Assembly (NCBI GenBank): GCA_949290765.1
Contig: CASETG010000017.1
Location: 1-62,901, forward strand
From: Oxalobacter formigenes
Lineage (GTDB): Bacteria > Pseudomonadota > Gammaproteobacteria > Burkholderiales > Burkholderiaceae_D
Direction: 5' to 3'
Length of the DNA stretch: 62,901 nucleotides
The notes below the pieces were generated by a model that did not search any database, was not told where the DNA came from, and saw nothing but the letters and a program-made list of their open reading frames with translations. Numbering within the stretch: position 1 is the first letter of the stretch; every line of letters begins with the position of its first letter. Positions 32,948-43,035 of this stretch are shown piece by piece. The translations under genes were made by a program, and so were the position numbers.

Positions 32948-33038
32948 GGAAAGGTGGCAGAGTGGTCGAATGCGCCGGACTCGAAATCCGGTATACGGTA
33001 ACCCCGTATCGAGGGTTCAAATCCCTCCCTTTCCGCCA
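32948..33038 (+). tRNA. tRNA-Ser (anticodon CGA)
   Basis: Acceptor stem GGAAAGG/CCTTTCC, anticodon arm CCGGA-CTCGAAA-TCCGG, long variable arm, TTCAAAT T-loop, encoded GCCA end. Confidence 0.97.
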
Positions 33039-33805: not shown

Positions 33806-34162
33806 TCAGACGGTTGTCGCTTCGACGGTTTTGCGAATCGCTTCCAGTTCAGGCGGCAGTTCACCCGCGGAAGTCGCGGAATCTTCCGCAATGGTTTGCC
33901 AGTTCTTCTTGCCGCGCAGCATGTCGAGCTGAATTTCCAGATTGTTCAACAGGTTGGCAAGCTGGAACAGAATGTCTTTCTGGACAGGTTCCTTGAGCAA
34001 TTTTGCAAATTCTTCGTTCCATACCGACAGAAAACCGGTCAGGTCGCTGCGATCAAGCGTACCCTGCATGGCTTCCCAGTTGGCCGCATATTCGGCCAGC
34101 GCTCGTGAAATGCGTTTTTTCACCTGTTCCAGTTTGGTGGAGAGATTGGCGGTGTCGTGCAT
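33806..34162 (-). CDS. Hypothetical alpha-helical protein (118 aa)
   Basis: ATG with AAAGGA RBS and protein-like amphipathic helical composition; no family recognised. Confidence 0.7.
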   Translation of the reverse strand: MHDTANLSTKLEQVKKRISRALAEYAANWEAMQGTLDRSDLTGFLSVWNEEFAKLLKEPVQKDILFQLANLLNNLEIQLDMLRGKKNWQTIAEDSATSAGELPPELEAIRKTVEATTV

Positions 34163-34320: not shown

Positions 34321-35013
34321 TCAGTATCCGGTGTGTTCAGGATGTCCGGTTTCCAGCCGTTTCAGGAACAGATTGCGCCAGACAGGTGAAAGCTCGGGAA
34401 GTCGGCTCAGGGTTTCCAGAATGGGGCGTTCCATGGATTTGCCGAAAAGGTAGTGCTGGACAAGGGCGACGGTCCATTCCGGTTGCGGTCGCTCCATGAG
34501 AAAAACGGTATCCCCAGCCTGTGCGAAGCCTTCTTCCAGTACTCTGTAAAACCAGCCGTTGTATGAAAGACGGTGCATTTCACGAGCCATATCATCTCGT
34601 CCGAAACGTTCGTTCATGGTATGGCACGCCTCACGTCCGAAGGAAACCTGTACGATGGCTTTGCCGATACGGAAAACATCGCCGATGCAGACAGTATGCT
34701 CGGTCATGCCGAGCGAGGCGATGTTTTCGCTGAAAGCGCCGGGATTTTGCAAAAGCGATGTGCAGTCGGGGATGAATTTTTTCCAGTAGGGATAATGGTC
34801 GCCTGCATAGTGCAGCAGGGCGTTTTCCGTGTCGTCATAATGTTCTCTGCCATCGGCGCCTTCGATGCCGTGCCGTCCCAGAAATGCATGAGCTTCGATC
34901 GGTTTCTTGACCGAACAGGTCTTTCCCTGTGCATCACGCAGGACATGGCGGCAAAGCAGGGCCGTGATACGGCCGACTGGTAATGGATTCGACGGGGAAA
35001 CAAAGGTATTCAT
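34321..35013 (-). CDS. yiiM: MOSC-domain protein with 3-alpha tail (YiiM-like)
   Basis: GAFSENI, CIGDVFRIG..VQVS..REAC (Moco-ligand Cys), GWFYRVLEEG and ERPQPEWTV motifs; start moved to ATG 35013 with AGGA RBS. Confidence 0.85.
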   Translation of the reverse strand: MNTFVSPSNPLPVGRITALLCRHVLRDAQGKTCSVKKPIEAHAFLGRHGIEGADGREHYDDTENALLHYAGDHYPYWKKFIPDCTSLLQNPGAFSENIASLGMTEHTVCIGDVFRIGKAIVQVSFGREACHTMNERFGRDDMAREMHRLSYNGWFYRVLEEGFAQAGDTVFLMERPQPEWTVALVQHYLFGKSMERPILETLSRLPELSPVWRNLFLKRLETGHPEHTGY

Positions 35014-35068
35014 GATGAAGTTCCTGTTGAAAAAGTATCGTTTCATAGGGATATGTACCGGCAAGGCG

Positions 35069-35875
35069 TCATTTCAGCGAGAAGGTGACCGGTACGATGA
35101 TTTTTGCCGGAGCTGGTGGCGCAGGAAATGGGTTGGCCCGTTCGATGGCTTTTTGCGCCGCTTCATCCAGTGCAGGGTATGTGCTGCTGTTTCTGACACG
35201 CAGCGAGCGGATGCTGCCGTCTTTCATGATGATGAACTCACAGGTAACCGTTCCGGTGATGCCCATTCGCCGTGCCTGTTCGGGATAGACCAGATATTGC
35301 CGGATTCGTCGCACGATATAGTGGTAGTGCTGGCGGACATAGTGTCTGAGCGCGCCGGTATCGTCGCCTGTTCCGTTGCCCTGACCGAAGGCATTGCCTG
35401 AACCGGGCGCGCCTGTTCCCGTACTGGTACCGTTCGTGCCGTCGGATACTTCAGGGCCGTTTTTTGATGTGATGTTTCGGTTGTCGTCATCCGTTGCGGA
35501 ACCGATAGTGGAACGTGATACGGATGTTGCGTGTTGCGATGTGCCTGCCGGTTGCGTGCCTTGTTTTTTGACCTGTTGCGTGGATACGGTTTTTTCAGCA
35601 AGAGGCTGTGAGGAACGGGATGCAGGTTGCCGGCGGGCCGTTTGCATGCGTGAGTCCGGGTGGTTTGCCTGTTTCGCTGTACCGGAGCCCCGGCTTGCAG
35701 CCTGACCGGCCTTTCCATGGAAAGTGCCGGATTGTGCTGTTGATATGGATGAAAAATCGATGGTGACGGTCTGCCTGTCTTGTTGACTGACAGCATACAC
35801 GAGCACGGCCAGCGTACCCGCCGTAATGATGTGGAGTGCAAGGGAGACGGCAAGGCTTTGGATATAACGGTTCAT
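35069..35875 (-). CDS. tonB: Energy transducer TonB
   Basis: TM helix with SLALH (SxxxH), flexible linker, C-terminal YPEQARRMGITG..LDEAA..PFP domain. Confidence 0.9.
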   Translation of the reverse strand: MNRYIQSLAVSLALHIITAGTLAVLVYAVSQQDRQTVTIDFSSISTAQSGTFHGKAGQAASRGSGTAKQANHPDSRMQTARRQPASRSSQPLAEKTVSTQQVKKQGTQPAGTSQHATSVSRSTIGSATDDDNRNITSKNGPEVSDGTNGTSTGTGAPGSGNAFGQGNGTGDDTGALRHYVRQHYHYIVRRIRQYLVYPEQARRMGITGTVTCEFIIMKDGSIRSLRVRNSSTYPALDEAAQKAIERANPFPAPPAPAKIIVPVTFSLK

Positions 35876-36243
35876 TGCCGTGTCTGCACGCTGATATGGT
35901 TGAAACCTTCCTTTTTCAGTGCGTCGATGAGACTGATAAAGGGTTGCAAGGTTACATTACGGTCGGCACTGATCATGATGGCGCTTTCCGGGTTTTTGCC
36001 TGACAGTGCGGTTTTCAGCTCGTCCATGGAAACAGGGATGTCATCCAGACGAATCGTGCCGTCATGTGCCAGTTCCAGCTGCAGGGAAATTTTCGGCAGT
36101 GCCTGTGCGGATGCCGTCTTGGGCAAATCGACGCGTATATTCCCTGTCGTCATGAAGCTGGCTGTCGTGAGAATGATGACGAGGAGCACCAGCATGACAT
36201 CCACCAGCGGGATGATGTTGATTTCAGTGAAGCTGTTTTTCAT
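35872..36243 (-). CDS. exbD: Biopolymer transport protein ExbD
   Basis: EINIIPLVDVMLVLLVI motif and VDLP; start moved to ATG 36243. Confidence 0.92.
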   Translation of the reverse strand: MKNSFTEINIIPLVDVMLVLLVIILTTASFMTTGNIRVDLPKTASAQALPKISLQLELAHDGTIRLDDIPVSMDELKTALSGKNPESAIMISADRNVTLQPFISLIDALKKEGFNHISVQTRQ

Positions 36244-36658
36244 GGCGGATATCCCATTGCAGGAGAATGTTTTTCGCACGCCGTGCGAGCAGGTTGTAAA
36301 GGGTGACGGACAGGATGGCGACAGCAAGGCCGATGGCGGTGGCCTTGAGCGCAAGCGCCAGACCGGTCATGATGGCGCCGGTTTCCATGTGTGCCGAAGT
36401 GCCGATTGCATGAAACGTCATCATGATGCCCAGTACGGTACCGAGCAGGCCGACATAGGGCGTGTTGCCCGCGACGGTGCCGATGATGGACATGTTTTTC
36501 GACAGGCGCAGTTCCAGCAGGTGACGTGACGGATAATCGTTCAGGTCGATGTGCCGGAAAAACAGGATACGCTCTGTCGCCAGGGTGACGACCAGAATGG
36601 ACAGTACGACAAGTACGCCGACGATGCCGTAATCGATCAATGAGACAAGCCAGTTCAT
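36224..36658 (-). CDS. exbB: Short-form ExbB (MotA/TolQ/ExbB family)
   Basis: PYVGLLGTVLGIM and ALKATAIGLAVAI motifs; 144 aa from ATG 36658. Confidence 0.9.
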   Translation of the reverse strand: MNWLVSLIDYGIVGVLVVLSILVVTLATERILFFRHIDLNDYPSRHLLELRLSKNMSIIGTVAGNTPYVGLLGTVLGIMMTFHAIGTSAHMETGAIMTGLALALKATAIGLAVAILSVTLYNLLARRAKNILLQWDIRHEKQLH

Positions 36659-36663
36659 AAGTG

Positions 36664-37428
36664 TTATCCGTTGAAAAAGGAAAGTTTGTGCCAAAGGGAT
36701 GCCGACAGTCCGTACAGGGAACGGATGGCCGGCGGCGTGACGGTTTCCTCTGTCGGTCCGTCTGCCAGAATGCGGCCGTCTTTCATGAGGATGGCGCGGC
36801 CGCCCAGAAAGCGTGCGTGTTCGGGATGATGGGTCGTCAGAATGAAACTCGCCGCATGGTCTCCTGACGATGACGATGCGAGTGAGCGGATGGTTTCCAG
36901 CAGATGATACTGGTTTCCGTAGTCCAGTCCGGCGACCGGTTCGTCCATGATGAAATACTGTCCGCCCTGTGCCAGTGCACGTGCGATCATGACCAGTTGG
37001 CGCTGGCCGCCGCTCAATTCCAGATAGGGACGCTCTGCCAGAGTGGACAGGCGTACCCGCCGCAGCGCATCGTGTGCCATGGCATGGTCGGTATCGGTAA
37101 AGCCGAGCCAGGGCGCACGGGATATCCGTGCCATCAGAACCATATCCAGAACGCGGTAATTGAATACCCCCTGATGGGTTTGCGGGACATAATTCAGGAT
37201 TTTCGCCAGTTCACGCTGACGCATGCGCGTGATATCCCGACCATGGATGAAAATGGCGTTTTTTTCGATGGGCAACAGTCCCAGCATGGCCTTGAGCAGT
37301 GTGGATTTTCCGCTGCCGTTCGGTCCGAGGATATTGACGATTTCGCCGGCTCCGATTGTTGTGGAACAGTCGCTCAGGATGGTACGGTTTTTCCGGTAGG
37401 CAAATGAAAAAGAACGGATTTCGATCAT
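36664..37428 (-). CDS. ABC transporter ATP-binding protein (FecE/BtuD type)
   Basis: GPNGSGKS, LSGGQRQ, MDEP and H-loop; true start ATG 37428 overlaps the permease stop (ATGA). Confidence 0.93.
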   Translation of the reverse strand: MIEIRSFSFAYRKNRTILSDCSTTIGAGEIVNILGPNGSGKSTLLKAMLGLLPIEKNAIFIHGRDITRMRQRELAKILNYVPQTHQGVFNYRVLDMVLMARISRAPWLGFTDTDHAMAHDALRRVRLSTLAERPYLELSGGQRQLVMIARALAQGGQYFIMDEPVAGLDYGNQYHLLETIRSLASSSSGDHAASFILTTHHPEHARFLGGRAILMKDGRILADGPTEETVTPPAIRSLYGLSASLWHKLSFFNG

Positions 37429-38435
37429 CGCCACCCCGTCCGGTTGGTATAAAGCGTCACGGCGAAAACAGGCAGGCTGACCAGTGAGGTATATACCCCG
37501 ATGGGCAACTCCGCCGTGAAAACGGTACGTGCGATACTGTCTGTTATCAGTACGAAAATCGAACCGGTCATGGCAGATGCCGGCAACAGTATCCGGTTGT
37601 CCGGGCCGGTCAGGAAGCGGACGATATGGGGGATGACCAGTCCCACCCACCCGACGATACCTGCCAGCACGACGGTGAAGGCACTGAGCAGGGTCGCGCA
37701 GACGATGATTTTGAGGCGTGCCCAACCGACTGCGATACCCATGGACAGCGCTTCTTCGTCGCCCATGCTGAGGATGTTGACGGTTTTTCCCTGAAGGCAC
37801 AGATAAAGAACCAGCGCGACACACGGCAGGCCGACACAGATGACGGAACCTGTTTCCACACGAGCGAAAGAACCCATCAGCCAGTACGTCAATTCCGGCA
37901 GCTGGGTATCGGTATCGGCCAGAAATTTCATGAAGGCGGTCAGCGAAGTGAAAAGGGATGCGCTGATCATGCCGCCAAGAAGCAGAATCAGAAGCGAGCG
38001 CCAGCGCAGGAAAACGGAAAACAAAAGCGCCAGTCCTACGGCGCAGCAGGCAAATGCGAAAGCGAAAATCTGGGTAGCCAGCAGAGAGGAATCGAACAGG
38101 ACGATACCGATACCGGCGCCGAAAGATGCGCCGGCCAGAACGCCCAGAATACCGGGAGAGACCAGCGGATTCATGAAAACCGACTGGTAGCATGCGCCCG
38201 ATACCGCCAGCGCGGCACCGACCAGTATTGCCGCCATGATGCGTGGAAAACGGATATAAAACAATGTGATATAGCGTTTTTCCTGTGCGTTTGAAAGCGC
38301 TGTGCCGTGCAGAAGTGCATCGGCCAGGTCAAATAGCGCGGATGGCGTCAGGTCATGGAAACGGCCGGTGAACAGCATGGCGGCGGTCATGACGGACAAC
38401 AGGATGGACAGCAGGATAAGCGGGTGTTTTCTCAT
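37425..38435 (-). CDS. FecCD/BtuC-family ABC permease
   Basis: RFPRI, NPLVSPGILG, GDEEALSMG and GWVGLVIPH motifs. Confidence 0.93.
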   Translation of the reverse strand: MRKHPLILLSILLSVMTAAMLFTGRFHDLTPSALFDLADALLHGTALSNAQEKRYITLFYIRFPRIMAAILVGAALAVSGACYQSVFMNPLVSPGILGVLAGASFGAGIGIVLFDSSLLATQIFAFAFACCAVGLALLFSVFLRWRSLLILLLGGMISASLFTSLTAFMKFLADTDTQLPELTYWLMGSFARVETGSVICVGLPCVALVLYLCLQGKTVNILSMGDEEALSMGIAVGWARLKIIVCATLLSAFTVVLAGIVGWVGLVIPHIVRFLTGPDNRILLPASAMTGSIFVLITDSIARTVFTAELPIGVYTSLVSLPVFAVTLYTNRTGWR

Positions 38436-39469
38436 GATTTCAGAATGTCTCTGATTTTTTCGGGTGTTAAGGTTTGCCTGAAGAAGAGCCGGATGAACAT
38501 ATCGGTTTCACGTTTCATGTCGATAGGACAAAGGTCGGGATGCAGGCGGTTCGCCAGCCACTGGATTCCGATGAACCGCATGAAAGAGGCCGGACGATCC
38601 AGCCAGCTGAACGGTTCGTGCGGTACAAAATAAACGCGATCTTCACGGACGGCCCTCAGGGCTTTCCAGCGGGTTTCGCGGAAGAAGCGTTTTTGCAGAC
38701 CCGGATGGTTGACCAGGATGACGTCCGGGTCGTAGTTCATGATTTGTTCGAACGACAGCCGGGTGATGGATTCGCGTTTTGTGCCGGGACATGCATGCAC
38801 ATTTTTGCCACCGGCCAGCCAAATGGCGACAGATCGGGTCGAACCGGCACAGGATGTCGCCAGTCCGTCCGCGTCCTGCGCCATATAGACCCGTACACGG
38901 CGATTTTCGGGAAGCTCGTGGAGCATTGTGCCGACTTTTTCAAGCGATTGCTTTCCATAGTCTGCCAATGCATTGCCGCGTTCGGTCTGGTGGAAAACAA
39001 GTCCGAGTTGCCGGAACATGGCGATATCGTCATGCAGTGAAGTATCGCGTATGGTAATCAGCGGAATGTTCATCTGGCGGAATGCCGTGATGATATCGTC
39101 GCTTTGCGGACGGTCTCCGGTCAGGAGAAAAGCGACATCAAGATTGCTTTTGAGCAGGATTTCGCGGTCGGGAATCATGCCCTTGCCGTACCAGCCGCCC
39201 AGAACGGGCAGTTGCCTGTATTTTTCGGGAATATAGGGTTTTTCATATTCGCGCAGCGGACCGTTCCAACCTGCCAGCAGATCGGGATTGAATACATAGA
39301 GGGCGAAACTCGATGGGAAGGTCGCGCCATATACGCGTGGCAGTTTGTCTGCCGCCAGCGCGAAGGTGCTTTGCAACAGAAAAATAAAAGCCAGGAAAAG
39401 TTTCATTGCAAGTCGTCGCAAAAAAGAAAAAACGCATCGTGAACGGGATTCCCCGCTCACGAAAGGCAT
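38432..39469 (-). CDS. Periplasmic substrate-binding protein, helical-backbone (TroA/BtuF-like)
   Basis: Signal peptide from internal ATG 39406 (start uncertain); LPVLGGWYG, EQIMNYDPDVI and PFSWLDRP motifs. Confidence 0.88.
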   Translation of the reverse strand: MPFVSGESRSRCVFSFLRRLAMKLFLAFIFLLQSTFALAADKLPRVYGATFPSSFALYVFNPDLLAGWNGPLREYEKPYIPEKYRQLPVLGGWYGKGMIPDREILLKSNLDVAFLLTGDRPQSDDIITAFRQMNIPLITIRDTSLHDDIAMFRQLGLVFHQTERGNALADYGKQSLEKVGTMLHELPENRRVRVYMAQDADGLATSCAGSTRSVAIWLAGGKNVHACPGTKRESITRLSFEQIMNYDPDVILVNHPGLQKRFFRETRWKALRAVREDRVYFVPHEPFSWLDRPASFMRFIGIQWLANRLHPDLCPIDMKRETDMFIRLFFRQTLTPEKIRDILKS

Positions 39470-39477
39470 AACGTCCG

Positions 39478-41514
39478 TCAGTATTTGACGGTTGCTCCCG
39501 CAAAGAGCGTCATGCCTGCCTGCGGGTAGCCGTAGGTGTAGTAATAGTTTTTGTCGAACAGGTTTCTGACACCCAGCTCGAAACTGTAATTGTCATCGGG
39601 CTCGTAAACCGCTTTCAGGTTGAAAGTGGCAAAGCCCGGTGAGCTGTCATGGTCATCCTTGCTGGAGCTGGAATAAAAGGAATCGGTGACGTACAGTTCC
39701 GGAATGATGGACATGTGCGCCATGGGCGAAATGACCAGATAAGCCGAACCGCTGTGTTTCGGTGTGAAGGTGATATAGTCCGCCGTATCGCTGCCGCGAG
39801 TGCTCCAGTTCATATAGCTGTATGTCAGGCCTGCCTTGAGGCTGGCGTCCAGCATGTATTCCGCACCCAGTTCGGCACCGAAAATGCGTGCCTTGTCCGC
39901 ATTGGTGAAATACGTGTTTTTCGCACTGTCAGTCGTCGAGATGATCAGGTCGGAAAAGTCGCTGTAAAACAGGCTGGTATTGAGTTTGAGTTTTTCAGTG
40001 ACGTTGCCGCGGTAGCCCAGTTCGTAATGGAGCGCCACTTCCGGTTTCAGATCGGCACTTGTCGGAATACTGGCGTTGTTACGGAAACCCATGAAACGCT
40101 CGCGCATGGTGCCGGTGCGCGATTTGCGGGCAACCGTTGCATACACCTGGTTGTTTTTCATGAAATCGTAAAAAGCACCGACCTGCCAGGTAAACAAATC
40201 GTCCGACATGCCCGAAACATTCATGCGGCTGCCGCTGCCGTCTGACTCATAGGTATTGGCATGTTCAGGATCGACCCATGTATAACTGCCACCGAATACC
40301 AGTGTCAGCGGGTCGGAGACTTTCAGAGTGTATTCCGCACCGACATCCCAATAGTTTTCCCGGATATCATCGCTCATGTATTTGACGTTGGCATCCGTCC
40401 AGCCGTAAGCCTTGTGCGACAGGGTGCGGTAGCCTACAGAGGTCGCCAGCCTGTTCCTGTCGTCGAAAGCGTAATCCAGTTTGAACTGTGCGCCGGCTGT
40501 GTACTGGTCGTACAGCGTATCCCCGCTCAGGTCGCGTACGGAATAGGTTTCATCCGTGTATCCGTATGTCCTGTCCTTGTGCTTGTCGTAATAGGCGATG
40601 AATTTGACATCGGTCTTGTCGTTGACGTGCCAGCTGGCATTCATGTAATAGCGGTCCGTGTCGTAGGTCGGCCAGCGCCATGCGCGCGATTGCGAGCCGC
40701 CGTTGCCGATTCTCGGCGCGTCAGGCGCCGCATTGATGGGTTGTCCGCGTTCATATCGCTGGACGGCATAACCGAACATGACGTCGATGTCACGGGTCGG
40801 CGTGAAACCGACCATCGCATTGAGGCTGCGGTTGCGGTAGTCCGAATTGATCCGCCGGCCCGGGTCCTGATAACGTCCGCCGTCGAAATCGCTTGAAAGA
40901 CGGTAGAAATCCTGACGGTTTTCCACGGCACTGACTTTCGCATAAAACTTTTCCTGCCGTGTACCGAGCGACAGCCCCATCAGGCGTCCCTGATCGTTGG
41001 CGTGACTGTCGAAATAATTGGTGTATTTGGCCTTGAAGTCCAGTTCCTTGACAGGTTTTGCGGTCTTGAGATTGATCGTTCCAGCAAGACCGTTGTTGCT
41101 GCCGAGAAGCGGCGATGAAAATCCTTTCGCGATATCGACCGATTCCAGATCGAACAACAGGGCGTTATCCGCACTCCATTCGTTACGATAGGCAGTCGCT
41201 ACCGGAATATCATCGACATACATACCGATCTGGTAACGGCTGGAACCGCGAATGGTAATGGTGTTTTCGCCACGTCCGGCAGACTCTCCCTGAAAAACGC
41301 CCGGAACACCGCGGACGGCTTCCCACAGGGTATTGGCGGTCTTGCGCTCGAAGTCCGTTTGCGTCAGATAAGTCGTTGTGTCGAAGCGGTCTGTTACCGT
41401 TACATTGTCGAGTTGTACCTCAGGCATATCGGAATCGGCGGCAAAAAGCTGTGATGATCCGGAAAAGAGCAATACGGCCATACAGGCCGGTGTGAAAAGC
41501 GGCTTTTTTTTCAT
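39478..41514 (-). CDS. TonB-dependent outer membrane receptor
   Basis: Signal peptide, TonB box LDNVTVT, plug (VPGV..IRG..VDDIP), LKPE, RNLFDKNY, C-terminal aromatic residue. Confidence 0.95.
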   Translation of the reverse strand: MKKKPLFTPACMAVLLFSGSSQLFAADSDMPEVQLDNVTVTDRFDTTTYLTQTDFERKTANTLWEAVRGVPGVFQGESAGRGENTITIRGSSRYQIGMYVDDIPVATAYRNEWSADNALLFDLESVDIAKGFSSPLLGSNNGLAGTINLKTAKPVKELDFKAKYTNYFDSHANDQGRLMGLSLGTRQEKFYAKVSAVENRQDFYRLSSDFDGGRYQDPGRRINSDYRNRSLNAMVGFTPTRDIDVMFGYAVQRYERGQPINAAPDAPRIGNGGSQSRAWRWPTYDTDRYYMNASWHVNDKTDVKFIAYYDKHKDRTYGYTDETYSVRDLSGDTLYDQYTAGAQFKLDYAFDDRNRLATSVGYRTLSHKAYGWTDANVKYMSDDIRENYWDVGAEYTLKVSDPLTLVFGGSYTWVDPEHANTYESDGSGSRMNVSGMSDDLFTWQVGAFYDFMKNNQVYATVARKSRTGTMRERFMGFRNNASIPTSADLKPEVALHYELGYRGNVTEKLKLNTSLFYSDFSDLIISTTDSAKNTYFTNADKARIFGAELGAEYMLDASLKAGLTYSYMNWSTRGSDTADYITFTPKHSGSAYLVISPMAHMSIIPELYVTDSFYSSSSKDDHDSSPGFATFNLKAVYEPDDNYSFELGVRNLFDKNYYYTYGYPQAGMTLFAGATVKY

Positions 41515-41530
41515 GTTTTGTGTGAATCCT

Positions 41531-42088
41531 TCAGTTGACGGTTGGCGGCATCTTTTCGAGAATTGCCGTTATGTCATGCAAGACAGATGAACAATCCGTA
41601 TCGTCAAGGTCATAGAGATGTGCGAAATCGAGAGACCATCGTGACGCCAGCAGGTGGGCGATACCGCTGCGGATACCGAGAAAGGTCGGGTTTGTCCGTT
41701 CGACCAGGGTAGCGAGCTGTTCGCTCCATCCTCCCCCTTCCAGTTCCCAGCGTCCGATTTCATCGATGAACAGATATTTTTTCGTCATATCGTCTGCCAG
41801 AACATGTCTTCCGGTTTCCAGTGCGGATTCTGAAAAACAGAAAGCACCGTGACATACCCTGTCTGCGACCGGAAAAACCGATGCATTCGCCAGCGGTACG
41901 GCCAGCGGAATACAGCGATGGCTGGCGATGCACAGCAGTTCATATCCGAACGGCTGTCCGTTGCGCATGGCGCGACGGGCGATGATGCCGCCCAGACTGT
42001 CCGTCTGTTTTCGCAACAGATGCAACAACGCTTCGAGCGTGCGGCTTTTTCCGCTTTTGCGGGTACCCGTGATGGCGAAAATCATCAT
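41531..42088 (-). CDS. Small P-loop NTPase (NTPase_1/DUF2478-like)
   Basis: ITGTRKSGKS Walker A and FIDEIGRWELEGGGW Walker B; ATG 42088 with GGAG RBS overlaps the DUF364 stop. Confidence 0.8.
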   Translation of the reverse strand: MMIFAITGTRKSGKSRTLEALLHLLRKQTDSLGGIIARRAMRNGQPFGYELLCIASHRCIPLAVPLANASVFPVADRVCHGAFCFSESALETGRHVLADDMTKKYLFIDEIGRWELEGGGWSEQLATLVERTNPTFLGIRSGIAHLLASRWSLDFAHLYDLDDTDCSSVLHDITAILEKMPPTVN

Positions 42089-42882
42089 GCATCTCCGTCC
42101 GTTACCGGTGGACGTCCGATTTTTTCCAGCCATCGGCGCAGATGACCGCAACTGGCATGACGGCGGACGGCATCGAATACACATGCCTTGTGGCATACCC
42201 GGCTGCTTCCCAGACTGAAACGGCCAAGTGTGCCGGCAAGCGGCGTACTCGGTCCCAGTATGCAAGCCGGGACATGCTTCGGAATATGCGGGAGATAATG
42301 ATGGATGCTTTTGTTGGAAAAAGCGGAACCGGTCAGAATCACTCCGTCGCACAAGGGCATCTGTTCTGCCGCCGCTGCAGGACGCAACGTTTGCGGGATG
42401 CCTTTCAGCTCGAAAATGCGTAGCGACACACCGCAGAGACGGGCCATCCGGACGACAGGAGCAAAGTAACCGACCAGTCCCAGACAGGCACCTTTGGGCA
42501 TATCTGCGACAAAATCCTGATAGTCTGGTGCCGGTACGGTACCGTTAACGTTCAGAATCGAATTGATGGCCGCCAGTGAAATGGCCTGATAGAGCTTATC
42601 GGTTTCAAGGTAAGCGGAAACCAGCTCATGCAGATGCATCTTGCAAACAGAGCGTTCGATGCCTGCCAGATGGCTACGGCTTTCGCACCGGTCTGCATAA
42701 CGCATGGCAATACCGGTACCGAGCGAGCTTTCGACGGCAACCGTTTTTTCACCGATGGCACAATCCGTTATTTCCGCGTCGCCAATGGCGCCAAGCGCTT
42801 CTTCGACGATATGTTGATAGACTGTCGCAACCATAAACTTGACAATCGGGTTTCCAAATGCAAAATAAACCGTTTCTTTCAT
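42085..42882 (-). CDS. DUF364 (Rossmann-like, putative heavy-metal chelation) protein
   Basis: AISLAAINS, LVGYFAP, VILTGSAFSN and LGPSTPL motifs; alternative start ATG 42834. Confidence 0.8.
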   Translation of the reverse strand: MKETVYFAFGNPIVKFMVATVYQHIVEEALGAIGDAEITDCAIGEKTVAVESSLGTGIAMRYADRCESRSHLAGIERSVCKMHLHELVSAYLETDKLYQAISLAAINSILNVNGTVPAPDYQDFVADMPKGACLGLVGYFAPVVRMARLCGVSLRIFELKGIPQTLRPAAAAEQMPLCDGVILTGSAFSNKSIHHYLPHIPKHVPACILGPSTPLAGTLGRFSLGSSRVCHKACVFDAVRRHASCGHLRRWLEKIGRPPVTDGDA

Positions 42883-42977
42883 GCAAAAAAACGGTTCGCT
42901 TGATGCGCTGCTTATGGGAAATCTTGTAGATCGAAAGCCGGAATACAGGAAAAAGGGTGACCTTTGTCAGTGATATC

Positions 42978-43035
42978 TAGCGCTATTCCTTTTTGGAATA
43001 GCGCTATTCTAAAAGGAATATTGCCGCGCTGGCAA
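42978..43035 (-). promoter_or_regulatory. sigma70 promoter overlapped by a palindromic operator
   Basis: Minus strand TTGCCA-N18-TAGAAT (43035-43030 and 43011-43006); inverted repeat TAGCGCTATTCC-TTTTT-GGAATAGCGCTA at 42978-43006. Confidence 0.7.

What the first reader, a model, noticed from the sequence alone, without database searches (positions are those of the whole stretch)
34321..43035. Self-contained 10-gene TonB/ABC import operon with DUF364, NTPase and MOSC protein: candidate molybdenum/Moco scavenging system
Seen: ten co-oriented, mostly overlapping or closely spaced genes under one promoter: DUF364, P-loop NTPase, TonB-dependent receptor, binding protein, FecCD permease, ATPase, exbB, exbD, tonB and a YiiM-like MOSC protein. 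Established: MOSC/YiiM proteins use molybdenum cofactor; type II (FecCD-like) ABC importers can carry molybdate/tungstate (Haemophilus MolABC); DUF364 is a protein of unknown function proposed to chelate metals. Free molybdate does not normally need a TonB receptor. Inference: the cargo may be a chelated or pterin-bound form (molybdophore or intact Moco), released or handled by DUF364 and the NTPase and delivered to the co-encoded MOSC enzyme. The operon carries its own energiser and has no siderophore reductase or Fe-sensing ECF genes.
Basis: partly seen in the sequence, partly recalled or inferred. Interest (0 to 1): 0.85.

Follow-up and report, generated by a model that had tools for sequence, protein, structure and literature searches.

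The report
Molybdenum-controlled TonB uptake operon
An Oxalobacter-like bacterium carries a ten-gene import operon behind the same DNA switch as its ordinary molybdate-uptake genes, so it likely pumps molybdenum across both membranes, probably bound to a small organic carrier, by an energised outer-membrane route that the papers searched do not describe.

Summary
The ten genes are real, intact and tightly packed. New here: a 23-bp palindrome (CGCTATTC-N7-GAATAGCG) sits 2 nt after the predicted -10 box. Its only other copy in this genome lies between modA and modE. In the genus, 13 of 18 exact sites are at modA/modE and 3 precede this operon. ModE control is therefore likely; binding is untested. 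The receptor belongs to a wide family tied to Mo genes, including E. coli prrA-modD. MOSC is missing from one of three carriers' operons and is divergent. The likelier client is formate dehydrogenase. The binding protein lacks MolA's K221/R264, so this works like MolBC-A without being an orthologue. The cargo's form is unknown; ligand-bound Mo is my best guess. The scan found the same kind of operon before on other DNA.

The parts
43006..43035 (-). predicted sigma-70 promoter (-35 TTGCCA, 18 nt, -10 TAGAAT)
   Evidence: similar hexamers at the same place in G016 and G018
42981..43003 (.). ModE-type operator, 23-bp palindrome CGCTATTC-N7-GAATAGCG, 2 nt after the -10 box and over the predicted start site
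42085..42882 (-). DUF364/DUF4213 protein, 265 aa, no signal peptide seen; putative ligand-processing enzyme
41531..42088 (-). NTPase_1 P-loop protein, 185 aa, Walker A and B motifs present; related to DUF2478
39478..41514 (-). TonB-dependent receptor, 678 aa, member of a Mo-linked family that includes the E. coli treA-ymgE (prrA) receptor
39437..39462 (-). intercistronic hairpin with T-run between receptor and binding-protein genes (possible attenuator or mRNA stabiliser)
38432..39406 (-). periplasmic binding protein (Peripla_BP_2, 324 aa from the likely start), 4PAG-like subfamily, not a MolA orthologue
37425..38435 (-). FecCD-type permease; best solved relative is MolB (HI1471)
36664..37428 (-). 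ABC ATPase
36224..36658 (-). ExbB (short type; 132.8 bits against a TIGR02805 cut-off of 135.35)
35872..36243 (-). ExbD
35069..35875 (-). TonB, additional to other TonB_C matches in the genome
34321..35046 (-). divergent YiiM-like MOSC protein: Cys kept, HGG motif and phosphate-site residues changed; variable member of the operon

Best explanation
This ten-gene operon is likely a molybdenum-starvation uptake system: its promoter carries the same palindrome as modA, so molybdate-bound ModE would shut it off, and when Mo is scarce its own TonB-ExbBD motor, receptor and type II ABC importer would bring Mo (or W), probably held by a small organic ligand, into the cytoplasm. There DUF364 and the NTPase would free the metal for the cell's own Moco pathway, whose main client is likely the FdhF-type formate dehydrogenase encoded beside modABC. 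The divergent MOSC protein is an optional passenger or binder, not the purpose of the system. Shown: gene content, operator sequence and position, family context, and host Moco and FDH genes. Inferred: ModE binding (about 0.9), Mo/W as cargo (about 0.85), a ligand-bound form, and the roles of the cytoplasmic proteins (both weak).
For: Operator: the only other copy in G000 is between modA and modE. A weight matrix trained on 16 modA/modE sites alone scores the modA site 37.7, the window site 33.5 and the next site 13.0; five shuffled genomes peak at 10.2-14.5. The exact motif is in 17 of 32 genus genomes, and the reversed control in 0; of 18 sites, 13 are at modA/modE, 3 at this operon and 2 elsewhere. 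The position just after the -10 box matches modA promoters. Another family uses the same 23-bp form: G170's three sites precede a family receptor, modE/modA and a sulfite dehydrogenase. Family: 8 of 10 strong matches in a draw of 400 Pseudomonadota genomes have a ModE-like box upstream of the unit, and a ninth has modABC-modD in the operon; background is 0.007 per 420 bp. Nine of 20 loci from G448's phylum have modABC, tupA, modE, moeA, fdhD or a TaoR-like gene nearby, or 17 of 20 if FmdE and PF00174-like genes count. The best solved permease is MolB. For a bound cargo: molybdate is thought to cross by porins (PMC8264917). The binding protein lacks MolA's K221/R264 (bioRxiv 2026.10.15.759412), and its next characterised structural neighbours bind metal chelates (YiuA, H. 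pylori CeuE). Family loci keep carrying enzymes (DUF364, NTPase/DUF2478, ModD, SAM methyltransferase, FmdE, 5'-nucleotidase). Client: an FdhF-type enzyme scores 881 bits against a cut-off of 666 beside modABC-modE-fdhD in G018 and is 91% identical in G000.
Against: No binding, expression or transport data exist. The nearest non-genus relatives have no ModE-like box (0 of 7 loci), and several of them show only DUF364 as a Mo hint. Overall only 17 of 34 family loci have the box. Two exact genus sites lie beside genes with no Mo link. Three complete genomes of the same family have no 23-bp site. MolA, a structural neighbour, binds free molybdate (PMC4031551). MolA's Z of 25.8 is tied with two uncharacterised proteins and only 2-3 above Fe- and Ni-chelate binders. 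The receptor fold is generic (best match OprC, 18% identity). No ligand-synthesis genes are in the operon. 29 of 32 genus genomes lack a close match to the binding protein, and the near sister G005 has deleted the operon. Kin in the counts are not independent.
Confidence: 0.47

Rival explanations
1. The regulation is the same but the cargo is free molybdate or tungstate. The receptor concentrates the bare oxyanion across the outer membrane at very low Mo, and the ABC importer is a second MolBC-A-like pump. The cytoplasmic proteins buffer or sort Mo from W.
For: H. influenzae MolBC-A transports free molybdate in vivo and molB is repressed 10-fold by molybdate (PMC4031551, passages). The permease is closest to MolB. 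The receptor family has invariant or near-invariant basic residues (R81, R89, R277, H367, R466, R473). In one genome without the operon, tandem operator-like sites precede a porin.
Against: MolA's K221/R264 are not kept. The cell already has modABC under the same operator. A bare oxyanion gives no evident job to DUF364, the NTPase, or the ModD and methyltransferase genes of related loci.
Confidence: 0.28
2. The system salvages intact molybdenum cofactor or another pterin-bound form released by neighbours, like BtuB-BtuFCD for B12. DUF364 and the NTPase remodel it and the MOSC-fold protein holds it.
For: DUF364 has a predicted pocket for flavin- or pterin-like ligands (PMC2954201), and five of its pocket residues are kept here. 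In other family loci a PF00174-like (sulfite-oxidase-type Mo-binding) protein with an apparent Sec or lipoprotein signal and no twin-arginine motif follows the receptor (signals judged by eye). The HGG-less MOSC clade recurs directly behind a family receptor in G297.
Against: Carriers make their own Moco. No Moco riboswitch or other Rfam family was found at E<=0.5. The operon's MOSC has lost R55, Q115 and S118 equivalents and is absent from G016's operon. These genomes have no PF00174 protein (0 of 5). Free Moco is labile (recalled).
Confidence: 0.14
3. The cargo is not Mo/W. It is an Fe, Ni, Co or B12 chelate importer as database labels say, and the operator link is accidental or serves co-regulation with formate dehydrogenase.
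For: Sources label relatives 'iron complex outer membrane receptor', and the E. coli cluster is described as possibly mediating iron uptake (PMC1890555, PMC12928451, passages). YiuA and H. pylori Ni-binding CeuE are close structural neighbours.
Against: No Fur-like box: the best match to a recalled consensus has 6-8 of 19 mismatches. No cobalamin riboswitch. No NiFe hydrogenase in 5 of 5 genomes (urease not tested). No siderophore, heme, Cu or B12 receptor model reaches its cut-off. Mo genes and ModE-like boxes recur across separate clades of the receptor tree.
Confidence: 0.1

Closest known systems
MolBC-A (HI1470-HI1472) of Haemophilus influenzae, type II ABC molybdate/tungstate importer
   Same: Type II ABC architecture. 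MolB is the best solved permease match (E 6.7e-55). MolA is the closest binding protein with a known ligand (E 6e-12, Z 25.8). molB is repressed by molybdate, and the system coexists with modABC (PMC4031551).
   Different: The binding protein is in another subfamily (4PAG-like, E 2e-60) without K221/R264. The operon adds a receptor, TonB-ExbBD, DUF364, an NTPase and MOSC, and has no modD. The passages read on MolBC-A do not mention TonB (0 occurrences).
prrA-modD-yc73-fepC cluster of E. coli (treA-ymgE locus)
   Same: Same receptor family. Binding protein, FecCD permease and ATPase are in one operon behind a ModE-like box.
   Different: Receptors are only about 26% identical. E. coli has ModD and a SAM methyltransferase instead of DUF364, NTPase and MOSC, no TonB-ExbBD of its own, and a 24-bp box. 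In print it is a proposed iron system.
ModE-ModABC regulon (E. coli paradigm)
   Same: A palindromic operator at the promoter is shared with modA, and a ModE (HTH plus two TOBE domains) gene lies beside that modA site (PMC8264917, PMC11672702 passages).
   Different: The operator is a 23-bp form, against 24 bp at the gammaproteobacterial loci. The regulon member is an energised outer-membrane system.
BtuB-BtuFCD and H. pylori CeuE-type TonB/type II ABC chelate importers
   Same: Same overall plan: receptor, class III binding protein, FecCD permease, TonB motor.
   Different: No family cut-off is reached, there is no B12 riboswitch or Fur-like box, and the regulation points to Mo.
YiiM (MOSC family, hydroxylaminopurine reductase)
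   Same: MOSC plus 3-alpha domain; C120, R117 and N87 equivalents kept.
   Different: R55, Q115 and S118 equivalents are N, F and E, the HGG motif is lost, it scores 105.7 against a cut-off of 294, and it forms a separate clade.

Membership tests
ModE regulon | Operator shared with the modA promoter, in a repressing position | tested here: met
ModE regulon | ModE gene present in carriers | tested here: met
   HTH plus 2 TOBE domains in G000; best NCBIfam match is ModE but under its cut-off (142.6 vs 369); orthologues beside modA in G016 and G018
ModE regulon | Molybdate-dependent ModE binding and repression | not testable with these tools
   needs EMSA or RT-qPCR
MolBC-A importers | Type II (FecCD/BtuC-fold) permease closest to MolB | tested here: met
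   weak as a test, because the Pasteurellaceae relative L053 also has MolB as best solved match
MolBC-A importers | MolA ligand residues K221 and R264 | tested here: not met
   K221 aligns to Ser and R264 to a gap (residues from bioRxiv 2026.10.15.759412, chain offset +21 inferred). Other MolA ligands were not available: Tirado-Lee 2011 is not held.
MolBC-A importers | Binds and transports free molybdate/tungstate | not testable with these tools
   no ligand data
prrA-type Mo-linked TonB receptor family | Groups with the E. coli treA-ymgE receptor and other Mo-linked receptors, apart from other TonB receptors | tested here: met
   46-row clade with SH-like support 99 in FastTree; gap in profile E-values between 1e-155 and 1e-98 in Pseudomonadota. 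The profile was built from these relatives.
Siderophore / heme / B12 / Cu TonB receptors | Reaches a curated NCBIfam cut-off | tested here: not met
   best 139.8 against 223.5
Fur or B12-riboswitch regulon | Fur box or cobalamin riboswitch upstream | tested here: not met
   (recalled Fur consensus)
YiiM (PRK11536) | Equivalog cut-off and Moco phosphate-site residues | tested here: not met
MOSC superfamily | MOSC domain with invariant Cys | tested here: met
DUF364 (PF04016) | Both domains and the conserved interdomain pocket residues | tested here: met
   G37, N83, G129, E148 and T174 equivalents kept; G39, D180 and T182 changed to A, N and S; R42 unclear
Cofactor salvage by auxotrophs | Carrier lacks moaA, moaC or moeA | tested here: not met

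The most novel reading that the evidence does not exclude
A widespread TonB-receptor family, present from Oxalobacter-like gut bacteria and sulfate reducers to about 40% of complete E. coli genomes, imports intact molybdenum cofactor or a pterin-bound Mo species from other cells. This would be a B12-style salvage route for Moco, with DUF364, NTPase/DUF2478, ModD, methyltransferase, FmdE and the HGG-less MOSC as interchangeable remodelling or carrier modules.
Probability: 0.14. Interest if true: 0.92.

Novelty: new variant of a known kind. Interest (0 to 1): 0.63.

Why it matters
[quoted passage not shown] A Mo-repressed TonB receptor family would be an energised outer-membrane step for Mo/W and implies a cargo worth that cost. 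It would also re-read the E. coli prrA cluster (2150 of 5426 complete genomes) as Mo rather than iron uptake. It bears on a puzzle in H. influenzae, where a low-affinity importer is expressed when Mo is low and its loss has no effect at low Mo (PMC4031551): the real substrate of such systems may not be free molybdate. This operon is a convenient test case because it is self-contained, has its own motor, has a clear operator, and sits in a genus where only one Mo oxidoreductase was found. It also gives DUF364 and the NTPase/DUF2478 slot a testable job.

Tried and rejected
Complex prediction of DUF364 with the NTPase gave no answer (score 0.00 in two runs); it is not evidence either way. The receptor model (pLDDT 86.6) matched many TonB receptors about equally, best OprC at 18% identity, so it gave no cargo. 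The Atlas search of the NTPase returned only NTPase_1/DUF2478 clusters. phmmer of DUF364 against PDB found nothing; a profile did. Rfam found only a tRNA at gathering score and nothing at E<=0.5 over the operon. A general link between YiiM-like proteins and the receptor is rejected: 22 of 400 genomes have MOSC matches at E<=1e-30 and only G297 also has the receptor. Of the 19 whose loci were returned, the 18 other than G297's fall outside the HGG-less clade (HGG was seen in 17 and not parsed in one). G023 has an HGG-less copy at a contig end without receptor or binding protein. My working label 'molA-like' for the Pasteurellaceae and enterobacterial binding proteins was wrong: L053's is also 4PAG-like. 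Tungsten is not favoured in this genus: no TupA, AOR, xanthine-oxidase-type, nitrogenase or PF00174 match in 5 of 5 genomes, but W is not excluded. Recent transfer is rejected: GC and GC3 are like the flanks. The 118-aa ORF at 33806-34162 is not part of the unit: it stays next to DUF389 in genomes lacking the operon. The control set of non-family receptor loci had 1 box-like hit in 67.5 kb, inside a gene, but many of those loci may not include the upstream region. Tirado-Lee 2011 and a ModE-motif survey were not held. RegPrecise-type regulon databases could not be checked and may already list such receptors under ModE. No supplements were read.
Full report
Observation. Five of nine junctions overlap and the others are 5-71 nt. 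The genome is 72.7% complete. The closest named homologue of the receptor (P0003, 75%) is labelled Oxalobacter vibrioformis, so the host is Oxalobacter-like. Close receptors occur in 2 of 24 genus genomes drawn (G016, G018) and close binding proteins in the same 2 of 31. G018 has all ten genes in order. G016 has nine; its only MOSC gene is a canonical YiiM about 12 kb away. G042, G046 and G047 have DUF389 next to the 118-aa ORF with no operon between. G005 (about 89% DNA identity) has deleted it, leaving a broken MOSC end and a 41-bp tonB scrap. The unit is thus a bounded, dispensable module.

The operator. A palindrome, CGCTATTC-N7-GAATAGCG, starts 2 nt after the predicted -10 box. The only other copy in G000 is on contig C64 between modA and a ModE-type gene followed by fdhD. 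The exact pattern occurs in 17 of 32 genus genomes, always with a 7-nt spacer, and the reversed control in none. Of 18 sites, 13 are at modA/modE, 3 precede this operon and 2 lie beside unrelated genes. The modA sites of G016 and G018 differ by one base. A matrix trained on 16 modA/modE sites ranks the window site second in G000 (33.5; modA 37.7; third 13.0; shuffles 10.2-14.5). In five other genomes the form was found in two of another family and in none of three of the same family. G170's three sites precede a family receptor, modE/modA and a sulfite dehydrogenase; G342's one site is at modE/modA. No Fur-like box (recalled consensus) or riboswitch was found. ModE represses Mo uptake genes (PMC8264917, PMC11672702; passages seen). 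I infer ModE repression.

The receptor family. A 46-row profile matched 11 of 400 Pseudomonadota genomes, 10 of them at E<1e-150. Eight of those 10 have a ModE-like box (recalled pattern, at most one mismatch) upstream of the unit, one has modABC-modD in the operon, and one has neither. Over 34 family loci tested, 17 have the box; the 7 nearest non-genus loci have none. Background is 22 hits in 1.37 Mb. In G448's phylum 62 of 401 genomes matched. I fetched 20 (the 17 best other than G448 and 3 from the next tier): 9 have modABC, tupA, modE, moeA, fdhD or a TaoR-like gene nearby, 8 more have FmdE or PF00174-like genes, 2 have only DUF364 and NTPase, and 1 has none (labels by BLAST to Pfam-labelled seeds; L224 and L225 are close kin). 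The 78 metagenome loci were all compared with my seed set, and 139 picked proteins went to Pfam: modE, modD, modABC-nifQ, moeA and MOSC recur. The enterobacterial form (L157 as query) is in 2150 of 5426 E. coli genomes as binding protein, permease, ATPase, methyltransferase, modD and receptor, with a 24-bp box upstream. Its gene set fits the prrA-modD-yc73-fepC cluster, proposed in print to be for iron (PMC1890555, PMC12928451; passages).

Origin. The window's receptor nests among Desulfovibrionales-type and unassigned metagenome sequences (41-47% identity), not with the members from its own order; holding it with those is rejected (p-AU 4e-47, 17 rows, rooted on two deeper members). L122, whose receptor is nearly identical to that of the Desulfovibrionales locus L052, has DUF364-receptor-binding protein-permease-ATPase-exbB-exbD-tonB with a divergent NTPase and no MOSC. 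An old transfer from that side, then placed under the host's 23-bp operator, is the simplest reading; the direction is inferred. Base composition matches the flanks.

Cargo. The permease is closest to MolB among solved structures. The binding protein (model pLDDT 89) is closest to the uncharacterised 4PAG (Z 37.0, rmsd 2.5, 309 aligned), then 4hn9, 4ovk and MolA (Z 25.8, rmsd 2.9, 284 aligned), then YiuA and H. pylori CeuE. MolA's K221 and R264 (bioRxiv 2026.10.15.759412, passages) are not kept. It therefore works like MolBC-A but is not filed as a member. MolBC-A is low-affinity, Mo-repressed and dispensable at low Mo (PMC4031551, passages). DUF364 keeps five pocket residues; its structure paper (parts 2-3 of 4 read) proposes work on flavin- or pterin-like chelators and notes Mo/W neighbours, and a methanogen screen places it in a modABC operon with polarity unresolved (10.1101/2024.03.05.583561, passages). 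The NTPase keeps Walker A and B; three beta/gammaproteobacterial loci have a Walker-less DUF2478-like relative right after the receptor. These point, weakly, to an organic-bound cargo that needs unloading.

Client. Carriers make Moco and have modA. PF00384 matches are in 31 of 32 genus genomes; in G018 the strong one is an FdhF-type enzyme beside modABC, with Cys at the position I recall as the Mo ligand; the second, weaker match I take to be NuoG without having tested it. No other Mo/W enzyme family was found in 5 of 5 genomes. The operon's MOSC keeps the Cys but has lost R55, Q115, S118 and the HGG motif (PMC5818509, passages). It forms a clade (SH-aLRT 97) with the G018, G023 and G297 copies, the last directly behind a family receptor. 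It is more likely a specialised binder or a decaying passenger than the target enzyme.

Novelty. Ten full-text searches showed no paper tying a TonB-dependent receptor to ModE or Mo uptake, judged from listings plus passages of twelve papers (PMC11734730, PMC7759655 and PMC3928620 besides those cited). [quoted passage not shown] Subscription papers, supplements and regulon databases were not seen and may bear on this. The scan's own notes report the same kind of operon in E. coli and in several other bacteria; I looked these up after my tests and they are not independent evidence. Verdict: a real, likely ModE-controlled, TonB-energised Mo/W uptake operon; a new variant of a known kind, with the cargo's form open.

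Noticed in passing
L044 1501-1549 and 1632-2675 (G041:C1:239324-239372): Two tandem 23-bp ModE-type sites, one mismatch each, precede a porin gene in a genome where the receptor operon's binding protein was not found; a possible Mo-regulated porin.
   Followed up: partly
L022 about 12550 (G016 receptor) and L074 about 6930 (G016 fdhF): Both genes change frame near codon 63-70; two such breaks in one assembly suggest sequencing indels rather than real loss.
   Followed up: partly
L255 9270-9860 (G005): A near-sister genome has lost the operon and its operator, keeping a broken MOSC 3' end and a 41-bp tonB scrap.
   Followed up: yes
L138 8198-8755, L140 10923-11477, L147 12024-12521, L150 10942-11553, L155 5860-6456: Small PF00174-like proteins with apparent Sec or lipoprotein signals and no twin-arginine motif follow family receptors where no ABC importer is seen; in L236, L240 and L243 tandem versions are fused to a tetrapyrrole-methylase-like domain.
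   Followed up: partly
L033 1501 and L041 1501: Exact operator copies lie beside genes with no evident Mo link (TetR-like and flavodoxin-like; rhodanese-like and NUDIX-like, labels by eye); unexplained.
   Followed up: partly
window 32948-33035: A tRNA gene lies about 0.8 kb beyond the 118-aa ORF; no link to the operon's insertion was seen.
   Followed up: no
window 33806-34162: A 118-aa ORF with no Pfam or NCBIfam match is conserved in 16 of 32 genus genomes.
   Followed up: partly
L073 10773-17370 (G018): The modABC-fdhF cluster also holds a porin, an aldehyde dehydrogenase, a ferredoxin-like subunit and a GltD-like flavo-Fe-S protein, possibly a formate-oxidising electron chain.
   Followed up: no
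window 42998-43020: A partial second operator-like half overlaps the -10 box, making a longer inverted repeat; G016 has similar flanking symmetry.
   Followed up: no
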